Part shown: positions 19,961 through 61,165 of the stretch, piece by piece
How positions within the stretch are numbered: position 1 is the stretch's first letter
How the letters are laid out: each line of letters opens with the position of its first letter
Assembly: GCA_964480345.1 (NCBI GenBank)
Contig: CAYZNW010000004.1
Location: forward strand, 27,962 to 91,961
Direction of reading: 5' to 3'
DNA from: an uncultured Candidatus Saccharibacteria bacterium
GTDB lineage: Bacteria; Patescibacteriota; Dojkabacteria; SC72
Length of the DNA stretch: 64,000 nucleotides
The notes under the pieces: generated by a model
Told to the model about the DNA's origin: nothing
Seen by the model: only the letters and a program-made list of their open reading frames with translations
Database searches by the model: none
Position numbers and translations under genes: made by a program

Positions 19961-21253
19961 ATGGCAAACTTAATTGTAAGAGGAGGGAACAAATTAGTAG
20001 GAGAGATTACTCCAGCAGGTAATAAAAATTCAGCACTCCCCATAATTTGTGCATCTTTACTTACAAATGAAGATGTTACCATTAGGAACATGCCTGATAT
20101 TACAGATGTTGCGAAGCTACTAGATTTAATGAAATCCTTAGGCTCATCAATTACATGGGATAAAGAGAATTTTGTCTTAAAGATAAATAACTCAAACTTT
20201 AAAGAAGATTTCGGTAAAGAATCATTTCCATTAGGAATGAGAGGTGCAGTTTTGCTACTAGGACCTCTAGTTACAAGAATGAAAAAGATAGAGATAAAAG
20301 AGGAGATAGGAGGGTGTGCTTTAGGAATCAGAGAGATAGATCCTCATCTAGAGGTTTTGAAAGAGCTAAATGTAAATATTGAAACAAATGGTTCTATCAA
20401 AATAAATACTGAGAATGGATTGAAAGCAGGCAAACTGTGGCAAGAGTATATGAGTGTAACTACTACTGAGAACTTCCTCATGGCAGCATCAAAAGCCAAA
20501 GGTATTTCCACAATGGTAAATGCTGCATCAGAACCTCATGTACAAGATTTATGTAACTTTCTAATCAGCATGGGTGCTAAGATAACTGGAGTAGGAAGCT
20601 CTATCTTGACTGTAGAGGGAGTAGAGGAGTTACACGGTGCTGACTTTACCATATCCTCAGATCATCATGAGATTACAACTATGTTGGCACTAGGAGCTAT
20701 AACAGGAGGGGAGATTAAAGTACATAATGCTATACCTGAACATTTCCCATTGATTGTTAAAGAGTTTAAGAAGTTTGGTGTAGATATTTCATATAACCAG
20801 GATACTGCTTCTGTAAAAGATTGTGATAGATTACTGATTGAACAACCGTATACAAAGAATATGCTTCCTAAAATAGAAGCAGCTCCATGGCCATACTTTC
20901 CTGCTGATTTAATGCCATTAATGATCGCTCTTGCTGTAAAAGCAGATGGAAGCATAATGTTTTGGAACAAGCTGTATGAAGGAGGTTTCTTCTGGATACC
21001 TGAGATGATTAAATTTGGATCTCATATAGTTATGTGTGATCCACATCGAGTAATAGTGTATGGAAACAAACCGCTATCTCCTGCAAAGGTAGTAGCTCCA
21101 AATATCATTAGAGCCACTGTTGCTTTAGCTATGGTAGCACTCTCTATTGATGGTGAGAGTGTAATAGAAAACGCAGATGCTATTAGAAGAGCCCATCCAA
21201 ACTTCACAGAGAATTTACAGAAGCTAGGAGCAGATATCGAGTGGACTGAGTAA
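19961..21253 (+). CDS. murA: UDP-N-acetylglucosamine 1-carboxyvinyltransferase MurA
   Basis: LIVRGGNKLVGEI..AGNKNSALPI EPT-family N-terminus, 430 aa. Confidence 0.9.
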   Translation: MANLIVRGGNKLVGEITPAGNKNSALPIICASLLTNEDVTIRNMPDITDVAKLLDLMKSLGSSITWDKENFVLKINNSNFKEDFGKESFPLGMRGAVLLLGPLVTRMKKIEIKEEIGGCALGIREIDPHLEVLKELNVNIETNGSIKINTENGLKAGKLWQEYMSVTTTENFLMAASKAKGISTMVNAASEPHVQDLCNFLISMGAKITGVGSSILTVEGVEELHGADFTISSDHHEITTMLALGAITGGEIKVHNAIPEHFPLIVKEFKKFGVDISYNQDTASVKDCDRLLIEQPYTKNMLPKIEAAPWPYFPADLMPLMIALAVKADGSIMFWNKLYEGGFFWIPEMIKFGSHIVMCDPHRVIVYGNKPLSPAKVVAPNIIRATVALAMVALSIDGESVIENADAIRRAHPNFTENLQKLGADIEWTE

Positions 21254-31150: not shown

Positions 31151-32350
31151 ATGGCAATTTATGAGCCTTTAGCATCAAAATATAGACCGAAGAGTTTAGA
31201 GGATTTTGTTGGTCAAACTCATTTGGTTGGGAAGAATGGACCAATTAGGAAGTTTTTGGAGAGTGGGAATATTCCATCTATGATTTTTTGGGGACCTCCA
31301 GGTACAGGTAAGACTACTTTAGCGTATATTCTTTCTTTGAATTTGTATTATGATTTTCATAAGGTGCAGGCTGTTAATAGTGGTAAGGATGCTTTAAGAA
31401 AGATTATTAAGATTGCACTTGGGAATCAGCAGTATGGTAAGAAGACGATTCTTTTTTTGGATGAGATTCATAGATGGAATAAGGCTCAGCAGGATGCTTT
31501 GCTTCCGTATGTGGAGAAGGGGGTTATCATTTTAATTGGAGCTACTACAGAGAATCCTTCTTTTACTGTGATTAGTGCTTTGTTGTCTAGGACTAAGGTT
31601 TTTGTGTTTAAACAGCATACAGAGGATGATATTTTTTCTCTTCTTGGGAGGATTAGTAAGGAGGAGTTTCCAAAGATCAAGATAGATCAGAAGGTGTTAA
31701 GGAGTATGGCTTCTTTATCAAATGGTGATATTAGGTCTGGTTTAAATATTTTAGAGATGAGTAGTAATTTAGCGTTGGCTAATGGTAGTAAGAGTGTTAC
31801 TGCTAAGCTTTTGCAGGATACTGTTCAGAGTCCTGTCTACTATGACAAGAATGGAGAGGAGCATTACAATTTGATTTCAGCTGTTCATAAGTCTATGAGG
31901 TCTTCTAATCCTGATGCGGCTTGTTACTGGGTAGGTAGGATTATAGCGGGGGGAGAGGATCCTCTTTTTGTTGCAAGAAGGCTGTTGCGTTTCGCAAGTG
32001 AGGATGTTGGGAATTCTGATCCTAATGCGGTTGTTTTAGCTAATGCTGTATATGAGGCTTGTGCGAAGATTGGTATGCCAGAGAGTGAGGTTTTTCTTAT
32101 GCAATTAGCAATATATTTGGCTAATGCTCCAAAGGACAATACAGCGTATGTTGTGGAGGGATTGGTTAAGGAGGATATAGAGAAGTTTGGTAATTTACCT
32201 GTGCCTATGCATATTAGAAATGCTCCTACTAAATTGATGAAGGAGTTGGGATATTCAAAGGGATATGAGTATGATCATGATTTAAAGAGTAAGAAGTCTA
32301 ATCAACAGTGTATGCCTGACAAATTGAAGAACAGGAAATATATTACTTAA
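31151..32350 (+). CDS. rarA: Replication-associated recombination protein A (RarA/MgsA AAA+ ATPase)
   Basis: YRPKSLEDFVGQ, GPPGTGKTTLA, LFLDEIHRWNKAQQDALLPYVEKG. Confidence 0.9.
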   Translation: MAIYEPLASKYRPKSLEDFVGQTHLVGKNGPIRKFLESGNIPSMIFWGPPGTGKTTLAYILSLNLYYDFHKVQAVNSGKDALRKIIKIALGNQQYGKKTILFLDEIHRWNKAQQDALLPYVEKGVIILIGATTENPSFTVISALLSRTKVFVFKQHTEDDIFSLLGRISKEEFPKIKIDQKVLRSMASLSNGDIRSGLNILEMSSNLALANGSKSVTAKLLQDTVQSPVYYDKNGEEHYNLISAVHKSMRSSNPDAACYWVGRIIAGGEDPLFVARRLLRFASEDVGNSDPNAVVLANAVYEACAKIGMPESEVFLMQLAIYLANAPKDNTAYVVEGLVKEDIEKFGNLPVPMHIRNAPTKLMKELGYSKGYEYDHDLKSKKSNQQCMPDKLKNRKYIT

Positions 32351-34880
32351 ATCTCTCCTCTATATTTTTCTTCTTCTGTGTTCTTCTAATTTCACCATTT
32401 CTTATAACATATCTACCTAGTTTTAGAACTCTATTTCCCATTGTAATATACAGGCTGTCTATGAACTTTGTAGTAGGGTAGAACAGGACGCCTAGTATCA
32501 ACATAGTAGCTCCAAGTACTACATTTCTTAGGTATGCGTTATCAAATATTCCTGTTTTAGGTGGCACTCCTGGAGTAGATGGACACAAACAGGTAGCTTT
32601 GCTACATTTATCCCATGAGCATGTAGTTCCTGATGGATTTCCTTCTTCACACTGTTCACCTTCTTGTAATTTTCCATCTCCGCAATATTCCGAGACTTTA
32701 ACTTCACAATCACATGTTGATTTACTACACTCTTCCCACAAGCAGGATACACCAGTAGGATTATTTTTCTCACACTGTTCTCCTGTATCTAATTTACCAT
32801 CTCCACATCCTGGTTCTATACATTCACATTTTAATTGGTTACATGTATCCCATTTACAGGTTGTACCTGTAGGGTCACCTTTCTCACACTGTTCTCCTGC
32901 ATCCAATGTTCCATCTCCACATCCTGGAGTTATACATTTACATGTTGTTCTATTACATGTATCCCATTTACAAGTAGTTCCGCTAGGATCTCCAACTTCA
33001 CACTGTTCTCCAGCTACATTTATTATTCCATCTCCACAGAAAGGAGCAGTAACAGTAGGACAAGTACAAGTTACATTGTTACAAACATTCCAACTACAAG
33101 AGACTCCAGTAGGATCTCCAAACTCACATTTTTCACCTGTTGTATTTCCTAATATTCCATCTCCACAGTACGGGACTCCAGGTGTTGGAGGAGGAATAAC
33201 AGGTGGTTCAGATGGAGGTTCATTACATGTATCACAGATAAGATTTTCTACTCTACATATCTGATCACAAGTACCTGTAACTGCAGTCGTCCAATAATTA
33301 CCACAATTACACAAAATTGGAGCACGGACATTTGAGCCTACTGTACCTGGTTCACAAGGATCCACTGATGTCTTTCCTGTAGGAACTAAAACTGCTGTTT
33401 GAGTTTTGGCATCGTATCTGTATGTGTAATCATCTGCAGAAAGCTTCTCACAAGCAGACGTGCCATCAGGCATCTGACAATAAACATGAGAATTACAATC
33501 GACAACTTTACCATTCATAATACAGTAACGAACAACCGATTTCTGTGTCTTAATACAAGCAGACGTGCCATCAGGCATCTGACAATAAACATTAGAACTA
33601 CAATCAACAACTTTACCATTAACTGTACATTCTGTAATAGTTCTTCTAAGGGCCTTGTTTAAAGCTTCTTCCATAACTCTCTCCTTAACTTCAGCTGCTT
33701 CTTTACTCCCAGTATTAGCAACATACTGATCTAAAGAGGTTTGATTTACAGGAGTAGTTGAAGAACCACTACCTGTATTAACTTTTATTTGATCTGCTGA
33801 TCTCACACCCTCCAACGCTGTATTCATTGAAACGGGTTTATTTGAACTATTCAGAAGTGATGATCCATTCCAAGTGTAGGTAACACCACCTATCGTTACT
33901 GTATCCCCCTGTTTCAAATTATTTACAAGAGTAGGATACAACGTTTGTTCTTCAGGAGGTGTTTGATTTAGATGCGAAGCATTACTACCAAAGAGTTCTT
34001 CGTCTTTCTTCTTTTGCTCTTCATATTTTGCTGCTATTCTTTGCTCTTCTTCATTACCATGTTCTGCTCTTGCATTCATTAAATCTTCATATGTAGCACA
34101 ATTTGGGCGACAATCACCAGCGGAACTTCGTAAAGGGCTATAATTACTTTTTATACTATTAACCTTAAATGTTAAGTATCCAAGAGAACAAATTATCAAG
34201 AATACTTGAGCCCCAAGAACAATTCTTCTTTTTCTGTAATCAAATTTATTTCTAAAGAATAGAATAACAACAAAGCTAACAACAATTAAAATAATCACAA
34301 TAATTAATAAAATCAAAGTAACAATATTAATCTTGTTGACATAATCTATCAGAGTCATAGAAGCTATCTCTTTGTTATATGCTTGAATTGACTCCTCTAA
34401 ATAGTCATCTGCTTCTTTAATGCTAGCCTTTAAATCGATGTTTTCAGCTTCTAAAGTGAACCTACTTCCAATAGCTAAAGTAATATCATCAACACCTACT
34501 GTACACACGTCTTTATATAAGAAAGTAGGAACAAGTATTTCGGAGAAATAACACTTCTGCCTATACAACTTAGCAAATTCCTCATAAATATTTCCTCCCC
34601 TTGGAACATTTACTACATTAACTGTAAAATAATCTACTTTCTCAGGAGAAACGCTATTAATATAGTCTAATACTGTTTTACTTGCCTCAGATCCATCTTG
34701 TACAAACAAATATGCTTTTTCCTTGTCATAATCACTTGCTTTAAAATCATTTACCTCTGTGATAGCTGAAGTCGCAGTGCTATCCTGCGCTTTTACCTCA
34801 TTAACATTACACAAAGAAAATAAAAGAAATGTGAAAAATACAACCAAAAGAGAACTCCAAGCAGTTTTTAATCTATACAT
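32343..34880 (-). CDS. Large Cys-rich repeat membrane protein (signal peptide, internal TM, 5 tandem CGDG..GEQCE repeats, C-terminal TM)
   Basis: Signal MYRLKTAWSSLLVVFFTFLLFSLCNVNEVKA|QD (track start 34949 is probably too far upstream). TM LILLIIVIILIVVSFVVILFF. A duplicated 35-aa module containing NGKVVDC.S.VYCQMPDGTSAC. Five repeats of about 38 aa, CGDG.(L/I)...GEQCE.G.P.G..C.W..C....C.C, similar to the Myxococcus cysteine-rich repeat (TIGR02232-type). C-terminal TM and a basic tail. Confidence 0.7.
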   Translation of the reverse strand: MYRLKTAWSSLLVVFFTFLLFSLCNVNEVKAQDSTATSAITEVNDFKASDYDKEKAYLFVQDGSEASKTVLDYINSVSPEKVDYFTVNVVNVPRGGNIYEEFAKLYRQKCYFSEILVPTFLYKDVCTVGVDDITLAIGSRFTLEAENIDLKASIKEADDYLEESIQAYNKEIASMTLIDYVNKINIVTLILLIIVIILIVVSFVVILFFRNKFDYRKRRIVLGAQVFLIICSLGYLTFKVNSIKSNYSPLRSSAGDCRPNCATYEDLMNARAEHGNEEEQRIAAKYEEQKKKDEELFGSNASHLNQTPPEEQTLYPTLVNNLKQGDTVTIGGVTYTWNGSSLLNSSNKPVSMNTALEGVRSADQIKVNTGSGSSTTPVNQTSLDQYVANTGSKEAAEVKERVMEEALNKALRRTITECTVNGKVVDCSSNVYCQMPDGTSACIKTQKSVVRYCIMNGKVVDCNSHVYCQMPDGTSACEKLSADDYTYRYDAKTQTAVLVPTGKTSVDPCEPGTVGSNVRAPILCNCGNYWTTAVTGTCDQICRVENLICDTCNEPPSEPPVIPPPTPGVPYCGDGILGNTTGEKCEFGDPTGVSCSWNVCNNVTCTCPTVTAPFCGDGIINVAGEQCEVGDPSGTTCKWDTCNRTTCKCITPGCGDGTLDAGEQCEKGDPTGTTCKWDTCNQLKCECIEPGCGDGKLDTGEQCEKNNPTGVSCLWEECSKSTCDCEVKVSEYCGDGKLQEGEQCEEGNPSGTTCSWDKCSKATCLCPSTPGVPPKTGIFDNAYLRNVVLGATMLILGVLFYPTTKFIDSLYITMGNRVLKLGRYVIRNGEIRRTQKKKNIEERFK
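32567..33185 (-). repeat. Five tandem coding repeats of about 114 nt (Cys-rich CGDG-GEQCE modules) inside the 32343..34880 CDS
   Basis: Repeated protein modules seen in translation. The antisense shadow ORFs 32599..33264 and 32835..33152 are a by-product of the periodic composition. Confidence 0.55.
33452..33660 (-). repeat. Intragenic tandem duplication with a 105-nt period (two near-identical copies of about 64 nt)
   Basis: aagcagacgtgccatcaggcatctgacaataaacat(g/t)aga... occurs at 33452 and again at 33557. It encodes the duplicated NGKVVDC.S.VYCQMPDGTSAC module. Confidence 0.7.
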
Positions 34881-34912
34881 AATAAACATACAATACCAAT
34901 ATAGAAAAAATT

Positions 34913-36160
34913 TTGCAATACATATATAATCAAAACATGAACATATCAACAGACAAACAAATCATAAATAGAATACTAACAAAAGCAGTAGAACAAATCC
35001 TGCCATCCAAGGAACTTTTAGAAAAAAAACTACTCTCTGGAGAAAGACTAAACATCTACCAAGGATTTGACCCAACAGCAGACACACTACACATAGGACA
35101 CACAGTTGCAATGAGAAAGTTAGAAGACTTTAGAAAATTGGGACACCATGTAATCTTCCTCATAGGAGACTTCACAGCAAGAATAGGAGATCCTAGTGAT
35201 AAAACAAACGCTAGAAAGGCACTAACAGAACAACAGGTAAAAGAAAATCTGAAAGACTATGTAGAACAAGCCTCACACATTATTGATATAAATAACAAAG
35301 AGAACCCAGTAGAAATACTCTTCAACAGCCAATGGCATGACAAGTTAACATTCCAAGATGTCATAAATCTCTCTACAGAATTCACAGTACAACAAATGCT
35401 CAAAAGAAACATGTTCCAACAAAGAATAAAAGAAGACAAACCAATATACCTAAATGAATTCCTCTACCCAATAATGCAAGGATACGACTCAGTAGTCATG
35501 AACATAGATATAGAGGTAGGAGGAAATGATCAACTCTTCAACATGCTTGCAGGAAGAGATATGGTTCTCAACCATCTCAACAAAGAGAAGAGCGTCATAA
35601 CTACAAGATTACTTACTACACAAGATGGTGCCAAAATGGGTAAGTCAGAAGGTAATATGGTCAAACTCAATGATAAACCAGAAGAGATATATGGAAAGAT
35701 AATGGCAAGTACTGATGATTCTATCGTAGAGATGTTCGAGCTACTCACATCTGCTGATTTAGAAGAATTAGAAAAATACAAAGAAAGATTACAAGCAGGA
35801 GAGAATCCTATGAATTTGAAAAAAGAACTAGCCTTTAGAATAACCAAGGAGGTAAAAACAGAAGAGGAAGCCGTACTAGCACAGAAACATTTTGAATCAA
35901 TATTTCAAAAAAGAGATAATTCTACAGACACAATAGAACAGAAAACACTCTCGGAAGATGAGATAAATATATTAGATCTACTCGTACAAGTAGGCTTTTC
36001 ACAAAGCAAAGGAGAGGCAAGAAGATTAGTAGAACAGGGTGCTGTTAAAATAAACGATCAGAAGTGTACAGATTACAAAACAACTGTAGATTTCAAAAAC
36101 GATCAAGAAATCATATTAAAAGCAGGAAGACATATTTGTCTAATTAGATACTCTAAATAA
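34913..36160 (+). CDS. tyrS: Tyrosyl-tRNA synthetase with a C-terminal S4 domain
   Basis: HIGH (TLHIGHTVAM) and KMSKS-type (AKMGKSEGN) motifs. The start could be the downstream ATG at 34937. Confidence 0.9.
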   Translation: MQYIYNQNMNISTDKQIINRILTKAVEQILPSKELLEKKLLSGERLNIYQGFDPTADTLHIGHTVAMRKLEDFRKLGHHVIFLIGDFTARIGDPSDKTNARKALTEQQVKENLKDYVEQASHIIDINNKENPVEILFNSQWHDKLTFQDVINLSTEFTVQQMLKRNMFQQRIKEDKPIYLNEFLYPIMQGYDSVVMNIDIEVGGNDQLFNMLAGRDMVLNHLNKEKSVITTRLLTTQDGAKMGKSEGNMVKLNDKPEEIYGKIMASTDDSIVEMFELLTSADLEELEKYKERLQAGENPMNLKKELAFRITKEVKTEEEAVLAQKHFESIFQKRDNSTDTIEQKTLSEDEINILDLLVQVGFSQSKGEARRLVEQGAVKINDQKCTDYKTTVDFKNDQEIILKAGRHICLIRYSK

Positions 36161-54185: not shown

Positions 54186-54788
54186 ATGATATCTTCGTAC
54201 AAAAATATATATATTATTTCTACAGATAAACAATTCATTACTTCCATAAGAAAGAATATATACTGCGATACCCTGTCCAAAGAGAGTAATACCAAAATAG
54301 CACTGATAGATAGAAGGAAGGAATCAAATACTTCCATTTCATATATTGAAAAGGTAAGAGTATGTAGGAAGATACATATTATTAATAATCTGTCATACAA
54401 AAGAATTAACAAATTGCTAGATCACGGTACTGATTACATTATCTCAGATCCGATAAATGTTAATTTACTTAATGGAGTGATATCTAAATTTCAAGGGAGT
54501 AATGAATTTATTGAATATCACGGTCTGAAACTTTATTTGAAAGATTTAGTTTTAGAATACAAGCAGTGTAGAATAAATATTACAAAGATAGAGGCTTTAA
54601 TAATCAAAGCATTAATTTTTAATAAAGGTTTTTGTTCCTTGGAGAGATTATGCGAGTATGCAAGAAGAGATCTGACAAGCAATTACATACAGGTAATTGT
54701 AACAAGAATAAATAATAAAAGTAAATTAGCAACAGGGATTAAGATTATAAAAAACAGATACGGTTTAGGATACAGAATAGCAATTTAA
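54186..54788 (+). CDS. Atypical OmpR-family winged-helix DNA-binding protein with a degenerate, non-canonical N-terminal domain
   Basis: C-terminal trans_reg_C-like ITKIEALIIKALIFNKGFCSLERLCEYARRDL...IQVIVTRINNKSKLATGIKIIKNRYGLGYRIAI. The N-terminal 100 aa lack the canonical receiver acidic pocket. Confidence 0.5.
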   Translation: MISSYKNIYIISTDKQFITSIRKNIYCDTLSKESNTKIALIDRRKESNTSISYIEKVRVCRKIHIINNLSYKRINKLLDHGTDYIISDPINVNLLNGVISKFQGSNEFIEYHGLKLYLKDLVLEYKQCRINITKIEALIIKALIFNKGFCSLERLCEYARRDLTSNYIQVIVTRINNKSKLATGIKIIKNRYGLGYRIAI

Positions 54789-57386
54789 TTAAATTTTCTT
54801 CCTCCATTTAACAATTTTATTTAATGCCTCTATTGGAGTTAGGTTATCTACATCTAATTCTTGAATTTCTCTCTCAATTTCTGATTCTTTTGCAGAGAAG
54901 AGTGGGTATTGAAGGGCACTTTGTCCATTGGAGATATCCTCTTTTTTTGAAGGGAAGACAACTTCTCTAACCGCACCTTTTGGTGAAAACATATTCTTTT
55001 GTTCAAAACTCTCTAATATCTCATTTGCTCTAACTATAACTTTTTCTGGTAGACCCGCCATCTTAGCAACATATATACCGTAACTTCTATCTGTACCTCC
55101 TTCTACTATTTTGCGAAGGAAAATCACAGATCCTTTCTCTACATCCTCTTCAACAAGTACATTAAAATTCTTAACGGTATTTTGGTTCTTCTCGGAAAGT
55201 TTTAACAGTTCATGATAATGGGTTGCAAAAAGAGTTCGAGCTTTAATATCTTTTAATATATACTCCGCTAAAGCCCAAGCTATACTAACTCCATCATACG
55301 TACTTGTTCCTCTGCCAACTTCATCAAGGATTATTAAACTATACTTAGTTGCATTATTTACTATATTGGCTGCTTCATCCATTTCGACCATAAATGTACT
55401 TCTTCCTTTAACCAAATCATCTGAGGCTCCAACTCTTGTAAATATCCTATCTACTATAGAGATATCAGCTTTTGATGCAGGAACAAAACTTCCGATTTGT
55501 GCCATTAGAACAATAGTAGCAACCTGTCTTATATATGTAGATTTACCTGACATGTTTGGGCCTGTGAGAATTGCCATATTTGATTCTTTTTGTGAGAGAT
55601 AGGTATCGTTTGATATAAATTCCTCATCAGAGATAGCTTCGATTATTGGATGTCTACCTTTTTGTATGTCTATAATTCCATCTTTCTCTCCAATTTCATA
55701 AATATTTGGCTTAGTGTAATTATTCTTAATAGCTATATATGCGAAGTTTGAAAGAACATCTATATACGCCACTACTTCAGCTAATTTAAGTAATTGATCT
55801 AAATTAGGTTGTAATGAATCTCGTAAGTCATTAAACAAACTGTATTCAAGAGCAAATAATTTATCATGTGCATTAAGTATGATGTCTTCTTTCCCTTTTA
55901 ATTCTTCTGTAATATATCTTTCTGAATTTACCAAAGTCTGCTTACGAATATATCTATCAGGGACTTTATCTTGATGAGCTTTTGTAACCTCAATATAGTA
56001 TCCAAACACAGAATTAAATCCGATCTTAAGTGTAGAGATTCCCGTTTTGTTTCGCTCTTCCTCTTCGAAACTCTTTAGCCAATCTTTACTATCACCAGAT
56101 ACTGCTCGAAGGTCATCTACCTCTTTGCTGTATTGCTCTTTAATTATTCCTCCCTCTGTTAATAGAGTAGGAGGAGTATCAGATATTGCTTTCTCAATCT
56201 TCTCAACTATTTCCTCAAACAGATTAATTTTTAATGAATCAAATTTAATATTCAGTTCTTTATTTAATTTCTCCAAAACTTTTAATGAACTAGAGAGAGA
56301 ATATTGCAAAGATTTAATATCTCTAGGAGCTGCTCTTTTCAAACCTATTCTCCCAGCAATTCTTCCAATATCATTAACTCCATCTAACTCTTCTCTTACT
56401 TCATTTAATATGTTTTCATTTTTGTAAAACTTCTCAACTATATTTACTCTCTCATCTATTTCTTTTTTACTAATTAACGGATTTAATATCCAAGAATACA
56501 GTAATCTAGTACCCATACGAGTACAGGTTTCATTAAGAATACTAAATAATGAATTTTCAATATTTCCTGAATATGAACTAGCGATTAACTCCAAATTTCG
56601 AATTGTAGCTTTATCCAAATTCATACTGCTATTCAAAGACACTCTTTTTGGTTTCTGGATATGCTTTGGTTCCATCAATTGAGTATCAAGAATATATTTT
56701 ATTATCATTGCTACTGGTATGATTTCTTCATCTTCATTAAGACCTAATGAATCTATATTTTTAACCTCAAAGAATTCAGAAATTAATTTTGAACTATACT
56801 GAATATTTTTTAAACCTTTATCTACAAACTGAACTGGAATACTGTTTAGCAAATCCTCATTCTCGCCCTCTACCAAGAGTATCTCAGTAGGATCATATTT
56901 AGATATGATGTTATTAATATTTAATTTAATATTATCTTCTACTAGAAGTAGAAAAGTTCCTGTAGAGATATCGCATAGGGAAGAGTACAATTTTTTACTT
57001 GTTAAGAAAAATGCTCCAAGATATGAATCTTTTATGGAGCTTGCTTCCTCACCATCTAATGTACCAGGGGTTACAACTCTTACTACTCCTCTCTTTACTA
57101 TTCCTTTAGCTAACTTAGGATCTTCTAACTGATCTACTACTACTACACAGTATCCTGACTCTATGAATTTTGGAAGATATTGATCTATCGCTTTATGAGG
57201 GAAACCTGCTAAGGGAACTTCTCCTTTTTTGTCTCTTTTTGTGAGAGTAATATTTAAAACTTTCGAAGCTATTTTTGCATCATCTCCAAATGTTTCAAAG
57301 AAATCACCCATTCTAAAAAGAACTATTTTATCAGCATACTGCTTCTTGAAAGCAGTATATTGTTTCATCATTGGAGTATTATCCAT
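54789..57386 (-). CDS. mutS: DNA mismatch repair protein MutS
   Basis: MMKQYTAFKKQY...FRMGDFFETFGDDA N-terminal mismatch-binding motif. Walker A LTGPNMSGKST. Confidence 0.9.
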   Translation of the reverse strand: MDNTPMMKQYTAFKKQYADKIVLFRMGDFFETFGDDAKIASKVLNITLTKRDKKGEVPLAGFPHKAIDQYLPKFIESGYCVVVVDQLEDPKLAKGIVKRGVVRVVTPGTLDGEEASSIKDSYLGAFFLTSKKLYSSLCDISTGTFLLLVEDNIKLNINNIISKYDPTEILLVEGENEDLLNSIPVQFVDKGLKNIQYSSKLISEFFEVKNIDSLGLNEDEEIIPVAMIIKYILDTQLMEPKHIQKPKRVSLNSSMNLDKATIRNLELIASSYSGNIENSLFSILNETCTRMGTRLLYSWILNPLISKKEIDERVNIVEKFYKNENILNEVREELDGVNDIGRIAGRIGLKRAAPRDIKSLQYSLSSSLKVLEKLNKELNIKFDSLKINLFEEIVEKIEKAISDTPPTLLTEGGIIKEQYSKEVDDLRAVSGDSKDWLKSFEEEERNKTGISTLKIGFNSVFGYYIEVTKAHQDKVPDRYIRKQTLVNSERYITEELKGKEDIILNAHDKLFALEYSLFNDLRDSLQPNLDQLLKLAEVVAYIDVLSNFAYIAIKNNYTKPNIYEIGEKDGIIDIQKGRHPIIEAISDEEFISNDTYLSQKESNMAILTGPNMSGKSTYIRQVATIVLMAQIGSFVPASKADISIVDRIFTRVGASDDLVKGRSTFMVEMDEAANIVNNATKYSLIILDEVGRGTSTYDGVSIAWALAEYILKDIKARTLFATHYHELLKLSEKNQNTVKNFNVLVEEDVEKGSVIFLRKIVEGGTDRSYGIYVAKMAGLPEKVIVRANEILESFEQKNMFSPKGAVREVVFPSKKEDISNGQSALQYPLFSAKESEIEREIQELDVDNLTPIEALNKIVKWRKKI

Positions 57387-57439
57387 ATGTGGAAGTATAT
57401 CATATGGAAAAGGGTTTTTGTGTTATATGGAGTTGTAGA

Positions 57440-59971
57440 TTATTTCCCTAGAATAATTTTGCTCTCTTCTTCAAAAGCAACTTTCCTTGCTTCTTTAATA
57501 TCTTCAGGATATACAGATACTCCGTATACTCCTGCCTGTACACAGTATTTGAGTAAAGGTTTACTATTTTCAACTATAACTATGACTTTCTCAGCTTTTG
57601 GCTTAACAACTTCCAATACATTATCGAGTACTTTAAATACACTATGTCTAGCTAAATCATATTTAGCATCTTTCTCATCAAGTTTGAAACCTTGCATTAC
57701 TCTAGCTATTCTTGGCATATTTAAAATCAAACCATCTATCTTGCTGTTTAATATCTCATCTGCAAGAATTACTTCTGATGGGTTATCTAGTATTGCAAAT
57801 ATTCCAAATGTAGAAGTTCTTCGTAATTTTTCACCTGAAAGTAATTTTTTGAATTCTTTCATTACATCATCATTCATAGGGGAGTGTACTGCAAGAGAAA
57901 TATTTCTCTTCTTATATACATTTCTTAATCTCTTAATTATAGTCGCAACTCTTTTTAGCAAAGCTGGATTACTGATGTAGTGTATAGCTCCAGACATATC
58001 ATTAGAAAGAATTTCGCCCTCATGTTCCTGTCCACCTTTTAGATTTTTGAATTCTTTGACAGTCGAGGAACCAAGTGAGAGGACAACATCGTTACCTGAG
58101 GCTAGGTTTACATACTCCAGCACTTTATCACATATCTCTTTTGTATATTCAACAAACTTCTTCTCCTTAACATACTCTAGAGGATGTTTTCCATTTTCTA
58201 TCATAACTCTATCCAAATCTACATATACTATTCCATCAGAATCACCTATATATTCAAAAAGCTTTTTACTATTAATATTAGCCATGCTATATATTTTAGT
58301 AGCGGATGGGGGTAGGGTACTATCTTTCAAAGGTATAGCTTCTTTAGTTTCAATAATCTTCTCAACAGGAGCTTTAACATCACCAGCAACATATGAGTCT
58401 ACAACAGGATGGGTATCCTTACCAGCAGGAGTAACCTCTTTCTCTCTATATACCGTACCTGAGCTTCCATCAATTCGAATATATTCACCATTTTTTAATA
58501 TCTCAGAAGCATTACCAGCCCCAACAACTGCTGGGATATTAAATTCTCTACAGAGGATTGCAGTATCACTTGTAACACCTCCTGTATCAAGAACAACTCC
58601 GCCACTTCCAAGTATCATTGATTCCATATCAGAGGAGTAATTCTTTATGACTAATATATCTTTTCTACTAAGTTTTCTTTTATCATCTGGTTTAGCAATA
58701 CATACATTTCCAACTGCTACACCAAAGCTAGCGCCAATTCCTGTAAGTATGAGGTCATCTTTAGTTATATCTTTCTTGTTCAAATCAGTATCTAAACCTT
58801 TCTTAGCAAGATATATTAACTCTTCTAACTTTCTGCTTACTTCATCATTATTCTTCTCTACGATCTTTTGCGCTTCATTCATAGCAGAGGAGACCATCTG
58901 TTTCTCAACTCTATATTTCTCTAAGAAAGCTATCACAACCTCTCTAATATTTTTTCTTGATATATCAGCATCAGAGAGCATAACTTTATCCTGAGCAACC
59001 ATTTCATAGAGAGGTTTGTTTTGAAGAATCCAGAATCTACCACCTGCAAGAACCCATTCTACATTTTGTACCTCTTTAGATTTATCTTCTATCACAAGAG
59101 CTATTTTAGATATCTCTTCCATATCTTTGTCTGAAAGTTTCTGCCTATGACTCCAATTCATGGAGATTTTAATTTTCTCAGCATTTTTGCTGTTTCCACC
59201 TGAAGATCTCATTGTTCTAACTTTCATCCACTCTTGTGGAGCTATATGTTTTTCTAAAATGGATAGATCTTTCTTGTTTAATAGGTAGGAGTCAGGAGTT
59301 AATTCGCCAAGTGATATCACATCTCCAAGGCCGTAAACTGCTTCGATACTTAATTTACTGTTATCTTGCGTTATCGGATCAACTGTAAATATTACTCCTG
59401 AGATCTCAGACTGAACCATTCGCTGAACTACTACAGCCATTTTTACATCTGAAAGATCAATACCAACACGAGATGCATATGCTACTACATCATCTGTGAA
59501 TACTGAAGCGTAAATTCTTTTGATGGAGTTTAGTAATTGATCAAACTTCCTAACATTTAACTCAGTTGCAAATATTCCATTAAAAGAGATATCTTTCCCA
59601 TCAGGAAATACAACAGAAGATCTAACTGATACCCATGCTTCTGTAAAACCTGAAAGACGAGTATATGCACTTAGAATTTCCTCCTCAACACCTTTATCAA
59701 AATTAGCTTTCAAGAAAGTATTCTCTATCTCTTTTCCCTCAGGATTCCTACCTTTACCCAAAAGTTTATCCTCTACAGAATCAAAAGCGTTTAAGCAGAA
59801 AGAGGTAAATACATTACTAGAAATCACAAAAAAATCAGGAACTGGAACATCCATGTCTTTTAATCTGAACAGACTATATCCTTTTCTTCCAATTCTATTT
59901 CTGTTTAAATCTTTAGCAGCGAAATCTTCAAAAAAGAAAACGGAACTCTTCTTTGTGCTAGAATTTTCCAT
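57440..59971 (-). CDS. PEP synthase / pyruvate-phosphate-dikinase family homolog with substituted catalytic residues (probable pseudoenzyme or neofunctionalised paralog)
   Basis: N-terminal PPDK_N/ATP-grasp-like region (IGRKGYSLFR...DVPVPDFFVIS). Central PEP-utilizers mobile domain DILVIKNYSSDMESMILGSGGVVLDTGGVTSDTAILCREFNIPAVVGAG, where the conserved phospho-His of GG.TSHAAI is Asp (TSD). The C-terminal domain aligns to PEP-utilizers_C but lacks the S[LIVMF]G[ST]NDLTQ signature (IDGLILNMPRIARV). Confidence 0.7.
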   Translation of the reverse strand: MENSSTKKSSVFFFEDFAAKDLNRNRIGRKGYSLFRLKDMDVPVPDFFVISSNVFTSFCLNAFDSVEDKLLGKGRNPEGKEIENTFLKANFDKGVEEEILSAYTRLSGFTEAWVSVRSSVVFPDGKDISFNGIFATELNVRKFDQLLNSIKRIYASVFTDDVVAYASRVGIDLSDVKMAVVVQRMVQSEISGVIFTVDPITQDNSKLSIEAVYGLGDVISLGELTPDSYLLNKKDLSILEKHIAPQEWMKVRTMRSSGGNSKNAEKIKISMNWSHRQKLSDKDMEEISKIALVIEDKSKEVQNVEWVLAGGRFWILQNKPLYEMVAQDKVMLSDADISRKNIREVVIAFLEKYRVEKQMVSSAMNEAQKIVEKNNDEVSRKLEELIYLAKKGLDTDLNKKDITKDDLILTGIGASFGVAVGNVCIAKPDDKRKLSRKDILVIKNYSSDMESMILGSGGVVLDTGGVTSDTAILCREFNIPAVVGAGNASEILKNGEYIRIDGSSGTVYREKEVTPAGKDTHPVVDSYVAGDVKAPVEKIIETKEAIPLKDSTLPPSATKIYSMANINSKKLFEYIGDSDGIVYVDLDRVMIENGKHPLEYVKEKKFVEYTKEICDKVLEYVNLASGNDVVLSLGSSTVKEFKNLKGGQEHEGEILSNDMSGAIHYISNPALLKRVATIIKRLRNVYKKRNISLAVHSPMNDDVMKEFKKLLSGEKLRRTSTFGIFAILDNPSEVILADEILNSKIDGLILNMPRIARVMQGFKLDEKDAKYDLARHSVFKVLDNVLEVVKPKAEKVIVIVENSKPLLKYCVQAGVYGVSVYPEDIKEARKVAFEEESKIILGK

Positions 59972-60003: not shown

Positions 60004-61101
60004 CTAAACGATACCTTTAGCCTTAATTTTTTGCAAGTCTATATAGAATTCGTAAAGGATCTTCAAAACGACAATTGCTGGAAGAGCTAACAAACCTCCA
60101 ATAGGACCAAACACTATGATAGCTGCTACTACACCTAACATTACAGCAAAAGGTTTAAGACCAATGGCATTACCCATAACACGAGGATACACTACAGTAT
60201 TCTCAATAGGCTGGTAGAAGAGGAGTAAGGCAAGAATTAAAACTGCTTTTGCTGGACCAAACACTATTAACCCTATTAATGATACCACTATGGCTGCAAG
60301 AGAAGCTCCAATATTTGGAATTAATCCAACTAGAGCTATGAATACAGCTAACGGAATAGCAAACGGCATCTGTAATATACTCAAGATAATTGCTGAATAA
60401 ATCATAGATAGTAGGCTTACAAAACTTTGACCAAGTAACCAACTACCTAATTTACTTTCTACATCTGAGACTAATTTCTTAACTCTTTCCTTCTTTTCAT
60501 CTGCAGGTATCCTGATTAGTATGAAATCAAGAAGAGAATCATGCTCTAATACAAGATATATCGAAAATATCATTGAAGTAATAACTGTACCAAAAGATTT
60601 TACAAAGCCAGAGAAGAACTCAGTTATATTTTTGAAATTATCAAAAGAGGGTAGGGCGTTCACTTTATCCATTAAAGATTTCTCTAAAGCATTAACATCC
60701 ACATTCATTCCAGCAATAGAGAAATTTCTCAAATCATCAGCAATTTTCTCTATCCAACCAGGTACAGCTGCTACTAGATTATCAAGCTGAGTAACAAAAG
60801 GAACAACTATAAGGGCAAATACTGATACCAATATTAATATTAAAGCAGTATACGCTATGAAGATAGATAGGAATTTGGAAACTCCCTTGCTCTTCAGTTT
60901 ATCAACAACAGGAAGACACACTGACATAAATATGAAGCTTAGAATCAAGAACATCAATACTGAAAGGATTTTCTTACCAAAAAACATAACGCCAAGTCCA
61001 AGAATAATTAGAAACATCAATCTAGGAGAGAGGTCAACCATAACTGTTCTGCTCTCTTCACTTCTACTACTATTCTCTTTTACTGAGTATATTTTTGCCA
61101 T
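60004..61101 (-). CDS. AI-2E family transporter (PerM/YhhT-like, UPF0118)
   Basis: Eight predicted TM segments. C-terminal conserved LIPNIGASLAAIVVSLIG...FYQPIENTVVYPRVMG motif. Confidence 0.7.
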   Translation of the reverse strand: MAKIYSVKENSSRSEESRTVMVDLSPRLMFLIILGLGVMFFGKKILSVLMFLILSFIFMSVCLPVVDKLKSKGVSKFLSIFIAYTALILILVSVFALIVVPFVTQLDNLVAAVPGWIEKIADDLRNFSIAGMNVDVNALEKSLMDKVNALPSFDNFKNITEFFSGFVKSFGTVITSMIFSIYLVLEHDSLLDFILIRIPADEKKERVKKLVSDVESKLGSWLLGQSFVSLLSMIYSAIILSILQMPFAIPLAVFIALVGLIPNIGASLAAIVVSLIGLIVFGPAKAVLILALLLFYQPIENTVVYPRVMGNAIGLKPFAVMLGVVAAIIVFGPIGGLLALPAIVVLKILYEFYIDLQKIKAKGIV

Positions 61102-61165
61102 ATTTCATAATTATAACAAAAAAGGGAGAATATTTCCTCCCTTTTTCAAAAACTATTTCAGTTGA

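What the first reader, a model, noticed from the sequence alone, without database searches (positions are those of the whole stretch)
57440..59971. PEP synthase/PPDK-family protein with the phospho-histidine replaced by Asp and the PEP-binding NDLTQ signature lost
The 843-aa protein has the full three-domain layout of PEP-utilising enzymes: an ATP-grasp-like N-domain, the swivelling mobile domain and a C-terminal PEP/pyruvate TIM-barrel-like domain. It aligns residue-for-residue with the PpsA mobile domain (DILV...GG.TSHAAI.ARE.GIPAVVG). The catalytic His that carries the phosphoryl group is Asp (GGVTSDTAILCREFNIPAVVG). In the C-terminal domain the PEP-utilizers signature ...S[IV]G[ST]NDLTQ is IDGLILNMPRIARV, and Arg residues of the RLSD / GFRG regions are also replaced. 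A phosphotransfer enzyme that cannot form the phospho-His intermediate is either a pseudoenzyme, possibly regulatory or structural, or has changed chemistry. An Asp at the His position could act as a constitutive phosphomimic. It sits immediately downstream of mutS on the same strand.
Basis: partly seen in the sequence, partly recalled or inferred. Interest (0 to 1): 0.6.

Follow-up and report, generated by a model that had tools for sequence, protein, structure and literature searches.

The report
PEP-synthase relative with Asp replacing phospho-histidine
A gene that databases call PEP synthase in a tiny-genome Dojkabacteria bacterium has an aspartate where the phosphate-carrying histidine should be and a rebuilt PEP-binding pocket; the whole lineage keeps this altered form, so it cannot work as a normal PEP synthase and probably does a different, still unknown ATP-dependent job.

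Summary
ORF 57440-59971 (-) encodes an 843-aa homologue of PEP synthase over its whole length (hhalign against canonical PpsA: probability 100, E 4e-99). The phospho-carrier His is Asp469. The PEP/pyruvate/Mg residues of the C-terminal barrel are all replaced: Arg->Asp585, NDLTQ->PRIAR, Cys->Val or a gap. It scores far below the NCBIfam PpsA cut-offs.

This is not decay. Asp is present in 81 of 82 orthologous loci (one has Glu), using both Asp codons. Every protein in the Asp clade that carries an organism name is from Candidatus Dojkabacteria, down to about 30% identity. All three domains are conserved, the ATP-grasp domain most strongly. The ATP-phosphate ligands shown by mutagenesis in the related enzyme RPH (Lys22, Arg117, Thr136, Glu297) are kept. 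The replaced barrel positions are themselves conserved and mostly acidic.

Most likely it is a re-tooled ATP-dependent swivelling enzyme in which the carboxylate has a role, either as an acyl-phosphate carrier or as a catalytic base. An ATP-binding pseudoenzyme is nearly as likely. JGI labels it "pyruvate, water dikinase", which is probably wrong. A genuine pyruvate kinase lies in the same window. I found no earlier description.

The parts
57440..59971 (-). Whole gene, 843 aa plus stop: PpsA-derived three-domain protein ('PPS-like, Asp-swivel')
   Evidence: ORF. Full-length profile homology to PpsA. An identical protein is in NCBI and Logan on a 93-kb contig.
58994..59899 (-). ATP-grasp nucleotide-binding domain (aa 25-326)
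   Evidence: Pfam PPDK_N E 5.6e-65. K30, R117, T136 and E305 correspond to RPH-Lm Lys22, Arg117, Thr136 and Glu297 and are invariant in the family. This domain holds 43 of the 58 invariant columns of the broad family alignment.
59015..59017 (-). Lys319 codon. It replaces the invariant Arg of the canonical 'LQxRP' motif (Arg337 in PPDK numbering).
   Evidence: Lys in 20 of 23 diverse family members, Arg in 13 of 14 canonical PpsA.
58757..58981 (-). Helical insertion/linker (aa 331-405) between the ATP-grasp and swivel domains, longer than in canonical PpsA
   Evidence: Predicted helices 342-373 and 378-394. Largely unaligned against canonical PpsA in hhalign. Poorly conserved and expanded in the 900-1040-aa relatives.
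58442..58756 (-). Swivel (mobile) domain, aa 406-510
   Evidence: Pfam PEP-utilizers 436-505, E 1.2e-18. G464, G465, T467, S468, D469, R475, E476 and P480 are conserved.
58565..58567 (-). GAT codon of Asp469, at the position of the phospho-carrier His
   Evidence: Alignments. Across 82 orthologous loci there are 81 Asp (72 GAT, 9 GAC) and 1 Glu. Invariant in alignments A1 and A2.
57443..58309 (-). Remodelled C-terminal TIM-barrel domain (aa 555-843), derived from the PEP/pyruvate-binding domain
   Evidence: phmmer to 8a8e and 9dae, hhalign, Foldseek TMt 0.79-0.82. Only 13 of 69 canonical-invariant columns are kept.
58211..58219 (-). Asp585-Leu-Asp587, replacing the canonical Arg-x-Glu of 'GLLRAEF' (the PEP phosphate-binding Arg)
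   Evidence: Asp585 is found in 20 of 23 diverse members; position 587 is Asp or Glu in 22 of 23.
57701..57739 (-). IDGLILNMPRIAR (aa 745-757), replacing the PEP-utilizers signature IDGxSIGSNDLTQ (Asn->Pro753, Asp->Arg754)
60004..61101 (-). AI-2E family transporter gene immediately upstream (32-nt gap). Conserved neighbour, possibly co-transcribed.
   Evidence: Pfam PF01594 E 5.8e-52. Directly upstream in 66 of 70 assessable orthologous loci. A terminator-like hairpin lies only upstream of it, at 61117-61148.
54789..57386 (-). mutS immediately downstream (53-nt gap). Conserved neighbour.
   Evidence: translation; MutS domains I-V in orthologous loci. Directly downstream in 53 of 68 assessable loci and further along the same strand in 14 more. 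The adjacency also holds for the short variant in L083.

Best explanation
This is the Dojkabacteria-wide, vertically inherited descendant of a PEP synthase that has been re-tooled and no longer makes or uses PEP.

Shown:
- It is homologous to PpsA over all three domains.
- The phospho-carrier His is an invariant carboxylate (Asp469).
- Every residue that binds PEP, pyruvate or Mg in the C-terminal barrel is replaced.
- The ATP-grasp residues that hold the ATP phosphates are retained.
- All three domains are under purifying selection.

Inferred:
- It is still an ATP-dependent swivelling enzyme with different chemistry.
- The ATP-grasp domain binds ATP and acts on the Asp469 carboxylate presented by the mobile domain. 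The most likely result is an aspartyl (acyl) phosphate, which is what classical ATP-grasp ligases do to carboxylates. Alternatively Asp469 serves as the catalytic base for direct phosphoryl transfer.
- The mobile domain then visits the rebuilt, acidic and probably metal-binding pocket on the catalytic face of the barrel. There the phosphoryl group would pass to a new, unidentified acceptor or to water.
- The loss of two or three ATP-grasp arginines (canonical R164->D161, R169->A166, R316->K319) would fit abandonment of the pyrophosphoryl-His dikinase route.

The confidence of 0.42 is for the inferred part (still an enzyme, with the carboxylate functional). That the protein is a conserved, re-tooled PpsA descendant which is not a PEP synthase I hold at about 0.9.
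For: Homology and substitutions.

Not a PpsA equivalog: 309.7 bits against a cut-off of 598 (NF005057), and 294.1 against 739.75 (TIGR01418).

Selection for the carboxylate: 118 of the 120 closest homologues carry TSD. Of 82 loci, 81 have Asp, with both synonymous codons, and 1 has Glu. His is one nucleotide away from Asp (CAT vs GAT). The Asp is kept in every sub-clade of a monophyletic group down to about 30% identity, including short variants with a trimmed barrel.

The loop around it (G464, G465, T467, S468, R475, E476), which in His enzymes cradles the phosphoryl group, is also conserved.

ATP site: K30, R117, T136 and E305 match the RPH-Lm residues shown by mutagenesis to position the ATP phosphates (PMC4844700; alignment). 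They are invariant or nearly so. The ATP-grasp domain carries 43 of the 58 family-invariant columns.

Barrel: the replaced catalytic positions are themselves conserved (D585, D/E587, S635, H696, D/E729, N/D751, P753, E/D801). They sit at or just after the C-terminal ends of predicted strands beta2-beta7, the catalytic face of a TIM barrel.

Same family, different acceptor: RPH shows that this family can swap the acceptor domain and substrate.

No need for PEP synthase here: the same window encodes a genuine pyruvate kinase.
Against: - No biochemical data exist for any member.
- Asp has never been shown to replace His in a PEP-utilizer swivel domain.
- Asp is shorter than His, and the docking geometry onto ATP is untested. 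The AlphaFold model has low confidence for part of the ATP-grasp domain and for the inter-domain arrangement (pTM 0.42).
- Two representative clusters inside the clade have Asn (P0132) or Ala (P0137) at this position. That is hard to reconcile with an essential nucleophile unless these are errors or derived losses.
- The flexible ATP-grasp loop 'SSATAEDLPxASFAGQ' is replaced by 'SSVVFPxxxxxSFxGxF', so catalytic competence of the ATP site is not assured.
- The barrel pocket is only moderately conserved across the broad clade, and part of it is deleted in the short variants.
- Conserved ATP ligands are also compatible with a nucleotide-binding pseudoenzyme.
Confidence: 0.42

Rival explanations
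1. ATP-binding pseudoenzyme. The protein no longer transfers phosphate. It uses the retained ATP-grasp pocket as a nucleotide or energy-charge sensor, and the swivel and barrel domains as a scaffold or regulator of a partner, for example the adjacent AI-2E transporter. Asp469 would act as a fixed negative charge, a phosphomimic that biases the mobile domain towards one docking state.
For: The nucleophile, all acceptor-site residues and several ATP-grasp residues (R->D161, R->A166, R->K319, and the flexible loop) are changed together, the usual pattern in pseudoenzymes. Asn and Ala occur at position 469 in two clade members. A related group has a fully degenerate swivel motif, which shows that this lineage tolerates loss of phosphotransfer. 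The swivel-like domain of Geobacillus pyruvate kinase (2e28) is a possible example of such a domain in a non-carrier role (from memory, not checked). The neighbourhood with a transporter gene is tightly conserved.
Against: Near-absolute conservation of a carboxylate, and of the flanking GGxTS loop, over deep divergence is stronger than a scaffold role would normally need. A phosphomimic would be repelled by the now acidic former PEP site. The catalytic face of the barrel keeps conserved polar and acidic residues. Gene order is conserved over more than 10 kb in this lineage, so adjacency says little about function.
Confidence: 0.35
2. The ATP-grasp domain phosphorylates a His (or other) carrier supplied in trans by another protein, or directly phosphorylates a substrate with no role for Asp469.
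For: ATP-phosphate ligands are retained. Family members such as phenylphosphate synthase split the domains over separate subunits (established knowledge, not tested here).
Against: No gene for a PEP-utilizers or HPr-like domain was seen in the conserved neighbourhood. The cis swivel domain and its Asp are conserved, which would be unnecessary under this model.
Confidence: 0.06
3. It is still a PEP synthase (pyruvate, water dikinase), as JGI annotates it, using a non-canonical residue set.
For: Three-domain architecture and best NCBIfam hit to PpsA. JGI name 'pyruvate,water dikinase'.
Against: No His in the swivel domain. The PEP phosphate-binding Arg is Asp. The Mg ligands Asn-Asp are Pro-Arg. 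The catalytic Cys is absent. Scores are about half the equivalog cut-offs. Canonical PpsA with all motifs intact exists in other CPR lineages (WWE3, Shapirobacteria), so the divergence is not simply CPR drift. Pyruvate kinase is present in the window.
Confidence: 0.03
4. Decaying pseudogene, or a sequencing or assembly artefact.
For: None beyond the loss of the catalytic residues.
Against: Intact 843-codon ORF. The same substitutions occur in hundreds of independent assemblies. Mean column conservation is 0.74-0.78 in all three domains against 0.54-0.59 in the linkers.
Confidence: 0.01

Closest known systems
Phosphoenolpyruvate synthase PpsA (pyruvate, water dikinase, EC 2.7.9.2; TIGR01418 / NF005057; structures 2ols, 8a8e, 9dae)
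   Same: Same three domains in the same order, homologous end to end (hhalign probability 100). The ATP-grasp phosphate ligands, the GGxTS loop, the RE motif of the swivel helix, the barrel fold and the C-terminal helix are retained.
   Different: His->Asp469. The PEP/pyruvate/Mg residues and the catalytic Cys are all replaced. Three ATP-grasp arginines are changed. There is an extra helical insertion between the ATP-grasp and swivel domains of roughly 55-60 residues. The Met of the archaeal 24-mer motif is Ile840. Scores fall below the equivalog cut-offs.
Pyruvate phosphate dikinase (PPDK; 1kbl, 1dik, 5jvl)
   Same: Same architecture and swivelling principle; Foldseek E about 1e-27. The Lys22, Arg92, Glu323 and Gln335 equivalents are kept (K30, R117, E305, Q317).
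   Different: The Arg337 equivalent is Lys319, and the Arg135 equivalent is replaced (mapping from my memory of the PPDK sequence; PDB titles 2dik R337A and 1jde K22A show that these residues were studied). No His; no PEP site.
Rifampin phosphotransferase RPH (5fbs, 5hv1) and relatives PigC/RedH
   Same: They show that the ATP-grasp plus swivel module can be combined with a non-PEP acceptor domain. The ATP ligands Lys22, Arg117, Thr136 and Glu297 match K30, R117, T136 and E305.
   Different: RPH keeps the catalytic His (His825), has a different domain order and has an unrelated acceptor domain. Here the acceptor domain is a remodelled PEP barrel and the His is Asp.
Classical ATP-grasp carboxylate ligases (e.g. 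D-Ala-D-Ala ligase, RimK, graspetide/microviridin ligases)
   Same: Proposed chemistry only: ATP-grasp-catalysed phosphorylation of a carboxylate (including Asp/Glu side chains of peptides) to an acyl phosphate. This is established knowledge, not tested here.
   Different: Different ATP-grasp subfamily. In those enzymes the carboxylate is a substrate, not a tethered carrier domain, and the acyl phosphate is attacked at carbon by an amine or hydroxyl group.
C-terminal PEP-utilizer-like domain of Geobacillus/Bacillus pyruvate kinase (2e28)
   Same: A swivel-type domain apparently used outside the His-relay enzymes (hit; its non-carrier role is from memory), a possible analogue for the pseudoenzyme reading.
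   Different: A single domain appended to an active enzyme. As far as I recall it keeps the TSH motif.

Membership tests
PEP synthase, equivalog level (TIGR01418 / NF005057) | Whole-protein score above the curated equivalog cut-off | tested here: not met
   309.7 bits vs 598 (NF005057); 294.1 bits vs 739.75 (TIGR01418).
PEP synthase, equivalog level (TIGR01418 / NF005057) | Phospho-carrier His in the swivel-domain signature G-G-x-T-x-H-[STA]-[STAV]-[LIVM] | tested here: not met
   Asp469 in three independent alignments. There is no His anywhere in residues 406-510 (sequence).
PEP synthase, equivalog level (TIGR01418 / NF005057) | PEP/pyruvate/Mg site of the C-domain: Arg of GLxRxE, NPMLGxRG, Glu of ExP, S-x-G-[ST]-N-D-L-T-Q, catalytic Cys | tested here: not met
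   R->D585, E->D587, NPMLGxRG lost, E->D729, N-D->P753-R754, Cys->V798 or a gap. Only 13 of 69 canonical-invariant C-domain columns are kept.
PEP synthase, equivalog level (TIGR01418 / NF005057) | ATP + pyruvate + H2O -> AMP + PEP + Pi activity | not testable with these tools
   Needs an enzyme assay.
PEP-utilising enzyme superfamily (homology: PPDK_N + PEP-utilizers + PEP-utilizers_C) | Homologous ATP-grasp (PF01326) and mobile (PF00391) domains | tested here: met
   E 5.6e-65 and 1.2e-18, both above the gathering scores.
PEP-utilising enzyme superfamily (homology: PPDK_N + PEP-utilizers + PEP-utilizers_C) | C-terminal domain homologous to PF02896 | tested here: met
   No Pfam hit for this protein alone. 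Homology comes from family member P0116 passing PF02896 (24.4 vs 22.8 bits), phmmer to PpsA structures over 400-841, hhalign probability 100 and Foldseek TMt 0.79-0.82.
ATP-grasp nucleotide-binding competence (as defined by RPH-Lm mutagenesis) | Lys22, Arg117, Thr136 and Glu297 equivalents present | tested here: met
   K30, R117, T136 and E305 are invariant in A1 and invariant or nearly so in A2. Actual ATP binding was not tested.
Pseudoenzyme (catalytically dead homologue kept by selection) | Loss of the ancestral catalytic residues together with purifying selection | tested here: met
Pseudoenzyme (catalytically dead homologue kept by selection) | Absence of any catalytic activity | not testable with these tools
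   Needs biochemistry. The conserved carboxylate and the conserved barrel face argue that this should not be assumed.
Acyl-phosphate (aspartyl-phosphate) enzymes | Covalent Asp-phosphate intermediate, with acidic residues and Mg2+ around it | not testable with these tools
   Only indirect evidence: an invariant Asp on the carrier loop and an acidic acceptor pocket.

The most novel reading that the evidence does not exclude
The Dojkabacteria protein would be the first PEP-utilizer-family enzyme that carries phosphate on an aspartate (acyl phosphate) instead of a histidine. The PPDK-type ATP-grasp domain would have reverted to the ancestral ATP-grasp chemistry of activating a carboxylate, and the swivel domain would deliver the high-energy group to a new acceptor in an acidic, metal-dependent TIM-barrel pocket. 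This would define a new reaction class in a core gene of an entire CPR lineage. Related 'PEP synthase' genes kept by other ultra-reduced symbionts, for example the K01007 genes retained in Nanobdellota genomes that lack glycolysis (bioRxiv 10.64898/2026.05.13.725050), may hide similar re-tooled enzymes.
Probability: 0.25. Interest if true: 0.85.

Novelty: new variant of a known kind. Interest (0 to 1): 0.6.

Why it matters
1. The phospho-histidine is the defining feature of the PEP-utilising enzymes (PpsA, PPDK, PTS enzyme I, RPH, glucan dikinases). A clade that has fixed Asp at that position for a very long time, while keeping the ATP site and the mobile-domain architecture, is either a new mechanistic variant of swivelling phosphotransfer or a new pseudoenzyme family. 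Simple labelling experiments can tell the two apart.

2. The gene is conserved across Dojkabacteria, organisms with some of the most minimal metabolisms known (PMC7304191), so it probably does something important for them.

3. It is annotated 'pyruvate, water dikinase' by JGI and 'PEP/pyruvate-binding' by NCBI. Metabolic reconstructions of CPR bacteria invoke PEP synthase to link pyruvate and PEP when pyruvate kinase is missing (PMC7304191). For this lineage that inference is unsafe.

Tried and rejected
- **DPANN origin of the sister group.** I tested whether the sister group with a degenerate swivel motif (P0149, P0152 and others) comes from DPANN archaea, which would link it to the puzzling 'PEP synthase' of Nanobdellota. 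The only named member is labelled Dojkabacteria, and the next relatives are canonical PpsA of WWE3 and Shapirobacteria. No support.
- **Pfam on the isolated C-domain.** It gave nothing useful, even at E <= 10. Homology had to come from profile and structure comparison.
- **Organism names.** The listing of cluster members gave few names. The ones it gave were all Dojkabacteria.
- **Literature.** Searches for an earlier description of a His-less or Asp-bearing PpsA/PPDK homologue, or of this gene in WS6/Dojkabacteria, found none. The library is incomplete, so absence is not proof. A search for PPDK residue roles also found nothing, so the Arg135/Arg337 roles rest on memory.
- **Link to mutS or the AI-2E transporter.** I considered a functional link. 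Adjacency is highly conserved, but so is the whole block trigger factor-sortase-Big protein-AI-2E-this gene-mutS-regulator-HisRS-PBP1. I therefore do not use it as functional evidence.
- **'SNDMS' at 655-659 as a shifted NDLTQ.** Rejected: it is not conserved and aligns to the NPMLG region.
- **Antisense ORFs.** The ORFs overlapping the gene on the plus strand (57360-57980, 58047-58640, 58647-58994) were treated as artefacts of the AT-rich sequence.
- **Domain docking.** The AlphaFold domain arrangement (pTM 0.42) was too uncertain to use, and no coordinates were available to measure the distance from Asp469 to the ATP site.
Full report
**The object**

Window 57440..59971 on the minus strand is an intact ATG-initiated ORF of 843 codons. 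An identical protein is on record in NCBI and Logan on a 93-kb contig, and the named close homologues are from Candidatus Dojkabacteria (candidate division WS6, a lineage of the Candidate Phyla Radiation). The window is AT-rich (about 28-38% G+C). It carries housekeeping genes typical of such genomes: aminoacyl-tRNA synthetases, cell-wall synthesis genes, RecG and RelA/SpoT.

**Checking the observation**

- Pfam finds the ATP-grasp domain PPDK_N (residues 25-326, E 5.6e-65) and the mobile PEP-utilizers domain (436-505, E 1.2e-18). It finds no PEP-utilizers_C, either in the whole protein or in the isolated C-terminal 291 residues.
- The C-terminal domain is nevertheless a PpsA barrel.
  - phmmer aligns residues 400-841 to the archaeal PpsA structures 8a8e and 9dae.
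  - A family member 54% identical (P0116) passes the PF02896 gathering score.
  - A profile of 59 family members aligns to a profile of 20 canonical PpsA over 743 columns with probability 100 and E 3.9e-99.
  - The AlphaFold model of this domain (pLDDT 85-92) superposes on 8a8e_A and 9dae_A with target-normalised TM 0.82 and 0.79.
- All alignments agree on the key substitutions.
  - GGVTSD469TAILCRE lies opposite GGxTSHAAIVSRE.
  - IDGLILNMPRIAR lies opposite IDGxSIGSNDLTM.
  - The Arg of GLLRAEF is Asp585 and its Glu is Asp587.
  - The NPMLGxRG arginines are lost.
  - The Glu of the ExP motif is Asp729.
  - The catalytic Cys (Cys756 in P. furiosus PPSA, bioRxiv 10.1101/2022.08.11.503304) aligns to Val798 or to a gap.
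- There is no His anywhere in the mobile domain.
- The protein scores 309.7 and 294.1 bits against NCBIfam PpsA equivalogs whose cut-offs are 598 and 739.75.

Its statement about mutS is reversed. mutS (54789..57386, minus) starts 53 nt after this gene's stop codon and is downstream.

**It is a conserved state, not an accident**

- Of the 120 closest homologues (52-100% identity), 118 carry T-S-D; no motif was found in the other two.
- A scan of one genome per GTDB species found at least 567 genomes with a relative. The best 80 are all Dojkabacteria/WS6/Patescibacteria assemblies at 35-87% identity.
- In the 82 loci searched, 81 have Asp at the His position (72 GAT, 9 GAC) and one has Glu. His (CAT/CAC) is a single nucleotide change from Asp, so the carboxylate is being held by selection.
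- A search with no word index against 1.84 billion cluster representatives showed the same signature in every sub-clade of a monophyletic group in a rough neighbour-joining tree. The signature is Asp at 469, 'IDGxIxNxPxxA' in place of NDLTQ, and Lys in place of the Arg of the ATP-grasp 'LQxRP' motif.
- The group includes long forms of 900-1040 aa. It also includes short forms of about 690-775 aa with GG(I/A/P)N(S/A)D and a trimmed barrel.
- Every protein in the Asp clade that carries an organism name is from Dojkabacteria.
- Exceptions inside the clade are one Asn (P0132) and one Ala (P0137) representative.
- Mean column conservation among 118 full-length orthologues is 0.78 (ATP-grasp), 0.77 (swivel) and 0.74 (barrel), against 0.54-0.59 for the two linkers. 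A decaying gene is excluded.

**What was kept and what was changed**

I compared 23 diverse family members with 14 canonical PpsA. The family keeps 18 of 28 canonical-invariant columns in the ATP-grasp domain, 13 of 33 in the swivel domain and only 13 of 69 in the barrel.

*ATP-grasp domain*
- In rifampin phosphotransferase, mutagenesis showed that Lys22, Arg117 and Thr136 position the ATP phosphates; Glu297 coordinates Mg but was dispensable when mutated (PMC4844700).
- Through the alignment these are K30, R117, T136 and E305 here. All are invariant in the 59-sequence alignment and invariant or nearly so in the broad one.
- The ATP-grasp domain holds 43 of the 58 invariant columns of the broad alignment.
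- It is not untouched. Three canonical arginines are changed: R164->D161, R169->A166 and R316->K319 (A3 numbering). The flexible loop 'SSATAEDLPxASFAGQ' has become 'SSVVFPxxxxxSFxGxF'.
- By my recollection of the PPDK literature, two of these arginines (PPDK Arg135 and Arg337) serve the step that removes the gamma-phosphate from the pyrophosphoryl-His. I could not verify this with the paper tools. The PDB titles 2dik (R337A) and 1jde (K22A) only show that these residues were studied.

*Swivel domain*
- The loop and helix around the carrier residue are retained: G464, G465, T467, S468, R475, E476, P480.

*Barrel*
- The positions that used to bind PEP, pyruvate and Mg are now D585 (20 of 23), D/E587 (22 of 23), S635, H696, D/E729 (16 of 23), N/D751 (20 of 23), P753 and E/D801 (15 of 23).
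- By the secondary structure of the model they sit at or just after the C-terminal ends of strands beta2 to beta7, the catalytic face of a TIM barrel.
- The pocket has switched from basic (several Arg plus a Lys) to acidic.

*Linker*
- A helical insertion (about residues 340-395) between the ATP-grasp and swivel domains has no counterpart in canonical PpsA. It is larger in the long forms.

**Relatives that bracket it**

- The nearest relative that still has the His (P0148, 30% identical) also keeps the ATP-grasp Arg, the RxE and a near-intact 'GTSDLSQ'. It scores 156.8 bits on PF02896. On its contig it lies next to enolase fragments and glucose-6-phosphate isomerase.
- Canonical PpsA with every motif intact exists in other CPR lineages such as WWE3 and Shapirobacteria. 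The changes here are therefore lineage-specific re-tooling, not general CPR drift.
- A further group (P0149, P0152, P0359 and others) has lost the swivel signature in a different way, often with Tyr at the His position. It keeps the ATP-grasp Arg and, in the two loci examined, lies downstream of a Na+/H+-exchanger/TrkA_N gene.

**Genomic context**

- The order trigger factor <- sortase <- | -> Big-domain membrane protein -> AI-2E transporter -> this gene -> mutS is conserved down to 35% identity.
- The AI-2E gene is directly upstream in 66 of 70 assessable loci. mutS is directly downstream in 53 of 68 and further along the same strand in 14 more, with insertions such as a Y1 transposase between them.
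- The short variant keeps the mutS adjacency even though its upstream context differs.
- In the window a strong terminator-like hairpin lies upstream of the AI-2E gene (61117-61148). None was found between AI-2E, this gene and mutS.
- Synteny extends over more than 10 kb of unrelated housekeeping genes, so I treat it as evidence of vertical inheritance and possible co-transcription, not of function.
- The same window encodes a genuine pyruvate kinase (14355-15758, 349 bits) and MurA, a PEP consumer. PEP/pyruvate interconversion in the glycolytic direction is therefore already covered.

**How it most likely works**

*Shown:* it cannot run the PpsA cycle, because there is no His and no PEP site. 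It is under purifying selection in all domains. The ATP-phosphate ligands and the carrier loop are kept. A carboxylate is fixed at the carrier position. The catalytic face of the barrel is conserved but chemically inverted.

*Inferred, and my preferred reading (about 0.42):* it is still an ATP-dependent swivelling enzyme.
- ATP-grasp enzymes classically phosphorylate carboxylates to acyl phosphates, including Asp/Glu side chains of peptide substrates (established knowledge).
- An Asp presented by the mobile domain exactly where the His used to attack ATP is a natural substrate for that chemistry.
- The acyl phosphate would then be carried to the acidic, presumably Mg-binding barrel pocket and passed to a new acceptor or to water. 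A variant of this reading has Asp469 acting as the catalytic base for direct transfer.

*Main rival (about 0.35):* an ATP-binding pseudoenzyme in which the Asp is a fixed negative charge.
- It fits the simultaneous change of all three active-site elements, the Asn/Ala exceptions and the existence of relatives with degenerate swivel motifs.
- It fits less well with the near-absolute conservation of the carboxylate and its loop.
- A simple phosphomimic would be repelled by the now acidic former PEP site.

*Minor rivals:* a carrier supplied in trans, a still-functional PEP synthase, and a pseudogene or artefact are unlikely, for the reasons given in their entries.

**Novelty**

I found no description of a PEP-utilizer family member with Asp at the carrier position, nor any discussion of this gene in papers on WS6/Dojkabacteria metabolism. 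The library searched is incomplete.
- NCBI names the gene 'PEP/pyruvate-binding domain-containing protein'. JGI names it 'pyruvate, water dikinase'.
- CPR metabolic surveys invoke PEP synthase where pyruvate kinase is missing (PMC7304191).
- A recent preprint notes that ultra-reduced Nanobdellota archaea keep 'PEP synthase' without the rest of glycolysis. Whether those genes are similarly re-tooled was not tested here.

I classify the finding as a new variant of a known kind: a known fold and architecture with a changed carrier residue and a changed acceptor site. It would move towards a new mechanistic class if the aspartyl-phosphate carrier is demonstrated.

Noticed in passing
window 14355-15758 (+) and 19961-21253 (+): A genuine pyruvate kinase (PK barrel 349 bits plus PK_C) and a MurA-type enolpyruvyl transferase (EPSP_synthase family) lie in the same window, so the organism has ordinary PEP-consuming enzymes alongside the altered 'PEP synthase'.
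   Followed up: partly
L085 7001-9478; L088 7001-9751; proteins P0149, P0152, P0350-P0362: A second group of PpsA-like proteins of about 825-916 aa, at least one labelled Dojkabacteria, has lost the swivel signature differently: often D-S-Y with Tyr at the His position, and NDLTQ changed to D-x-D-x-L-S-Q. It keeps the ATP-grasp Arg and a recognisable PF02896 domain. In both loci examined (L085, L088) the gene sits downstream of a Transglut_core gene and a Na_H_Exchanger/TrkA_N gene.
   Followed up: partly
L086 7001-9661 (protein P0148): The nearest His-bearing relative (886 aa) lies next to short enolase N-terminal fragments (possibly a broken enolase gene), glucose-6-phosphate isomerase and an AI-2E transporter. 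It has already lost the catalytic Cys and has GTSDLSQ instead of GSNDLTQ, so it may be an evolutionary intermediate.
   Followed up: partly
protein P0215 (704 aa, metagenome): An apparently independent His->Asp change (GGLTSDAAILARE) in a protein that otherwise keeps canonical ATP-grasp motifs (VRSSA, QTRP) and groups with canonical PpsA in the NJ tree.
   Followed up: no
window 54186-54788 (+): A 200-aa ORF between HisRS and mutS has no Pfam hit at E <= 1e-3. In related loci (L084, L087) the same position holds an OmpR-type response regulator. Only the last ~26 residues (the winged-helix tail...RYGLGYRIA) still resemble it, so the receiver domain may be degenerate.
   Followed up: partly
window 32343-34949 (-): An 868-aa ORF (TTG start) with no Pfam family at E <= 1e-5.
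   Followed up: no
window 61117-61148 (-): A strong terminator-like hairpin (14-pair stem followed by a T run) lies between the Big-domain membrane protein gene and the AI-2E transporter gene. It may mark the start of an AI-2E / PPS-like / mutS transcription unit.
   Followed up: no
L001 8583-9038 and other loci (L025, L026, L028, L035, L048, L060, L061, L065, L069, L070): Insertions of 0.5-5 kb separate the PPS-like gene from mutS in about 14 of 68 species. In L001 the insert is an IS200-type Y1 transposase gene.
   Followed up: no
proteins P0182, P0186, P0190, P0197-P0202 and others (1100-2650 aa): Many giant relatives among the representatives carry one PPDK_N-type ATP-grasp domain and two or three intact GGxTCHAAI swivel motifs in one polypeptide. 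Their origin and function were not examined.
   Followed up: no
loci L004-L082 record titles: Many MAGs titled 'uncultured Candidatus Saccharibacteria bacterium', and one titled 'Candidatus Nomurabacteria' (L084), share the Dojkabacteria-specific gene order and the Asp-type protein. These submitter labels are probably generic or wrong.
   Followed up: no
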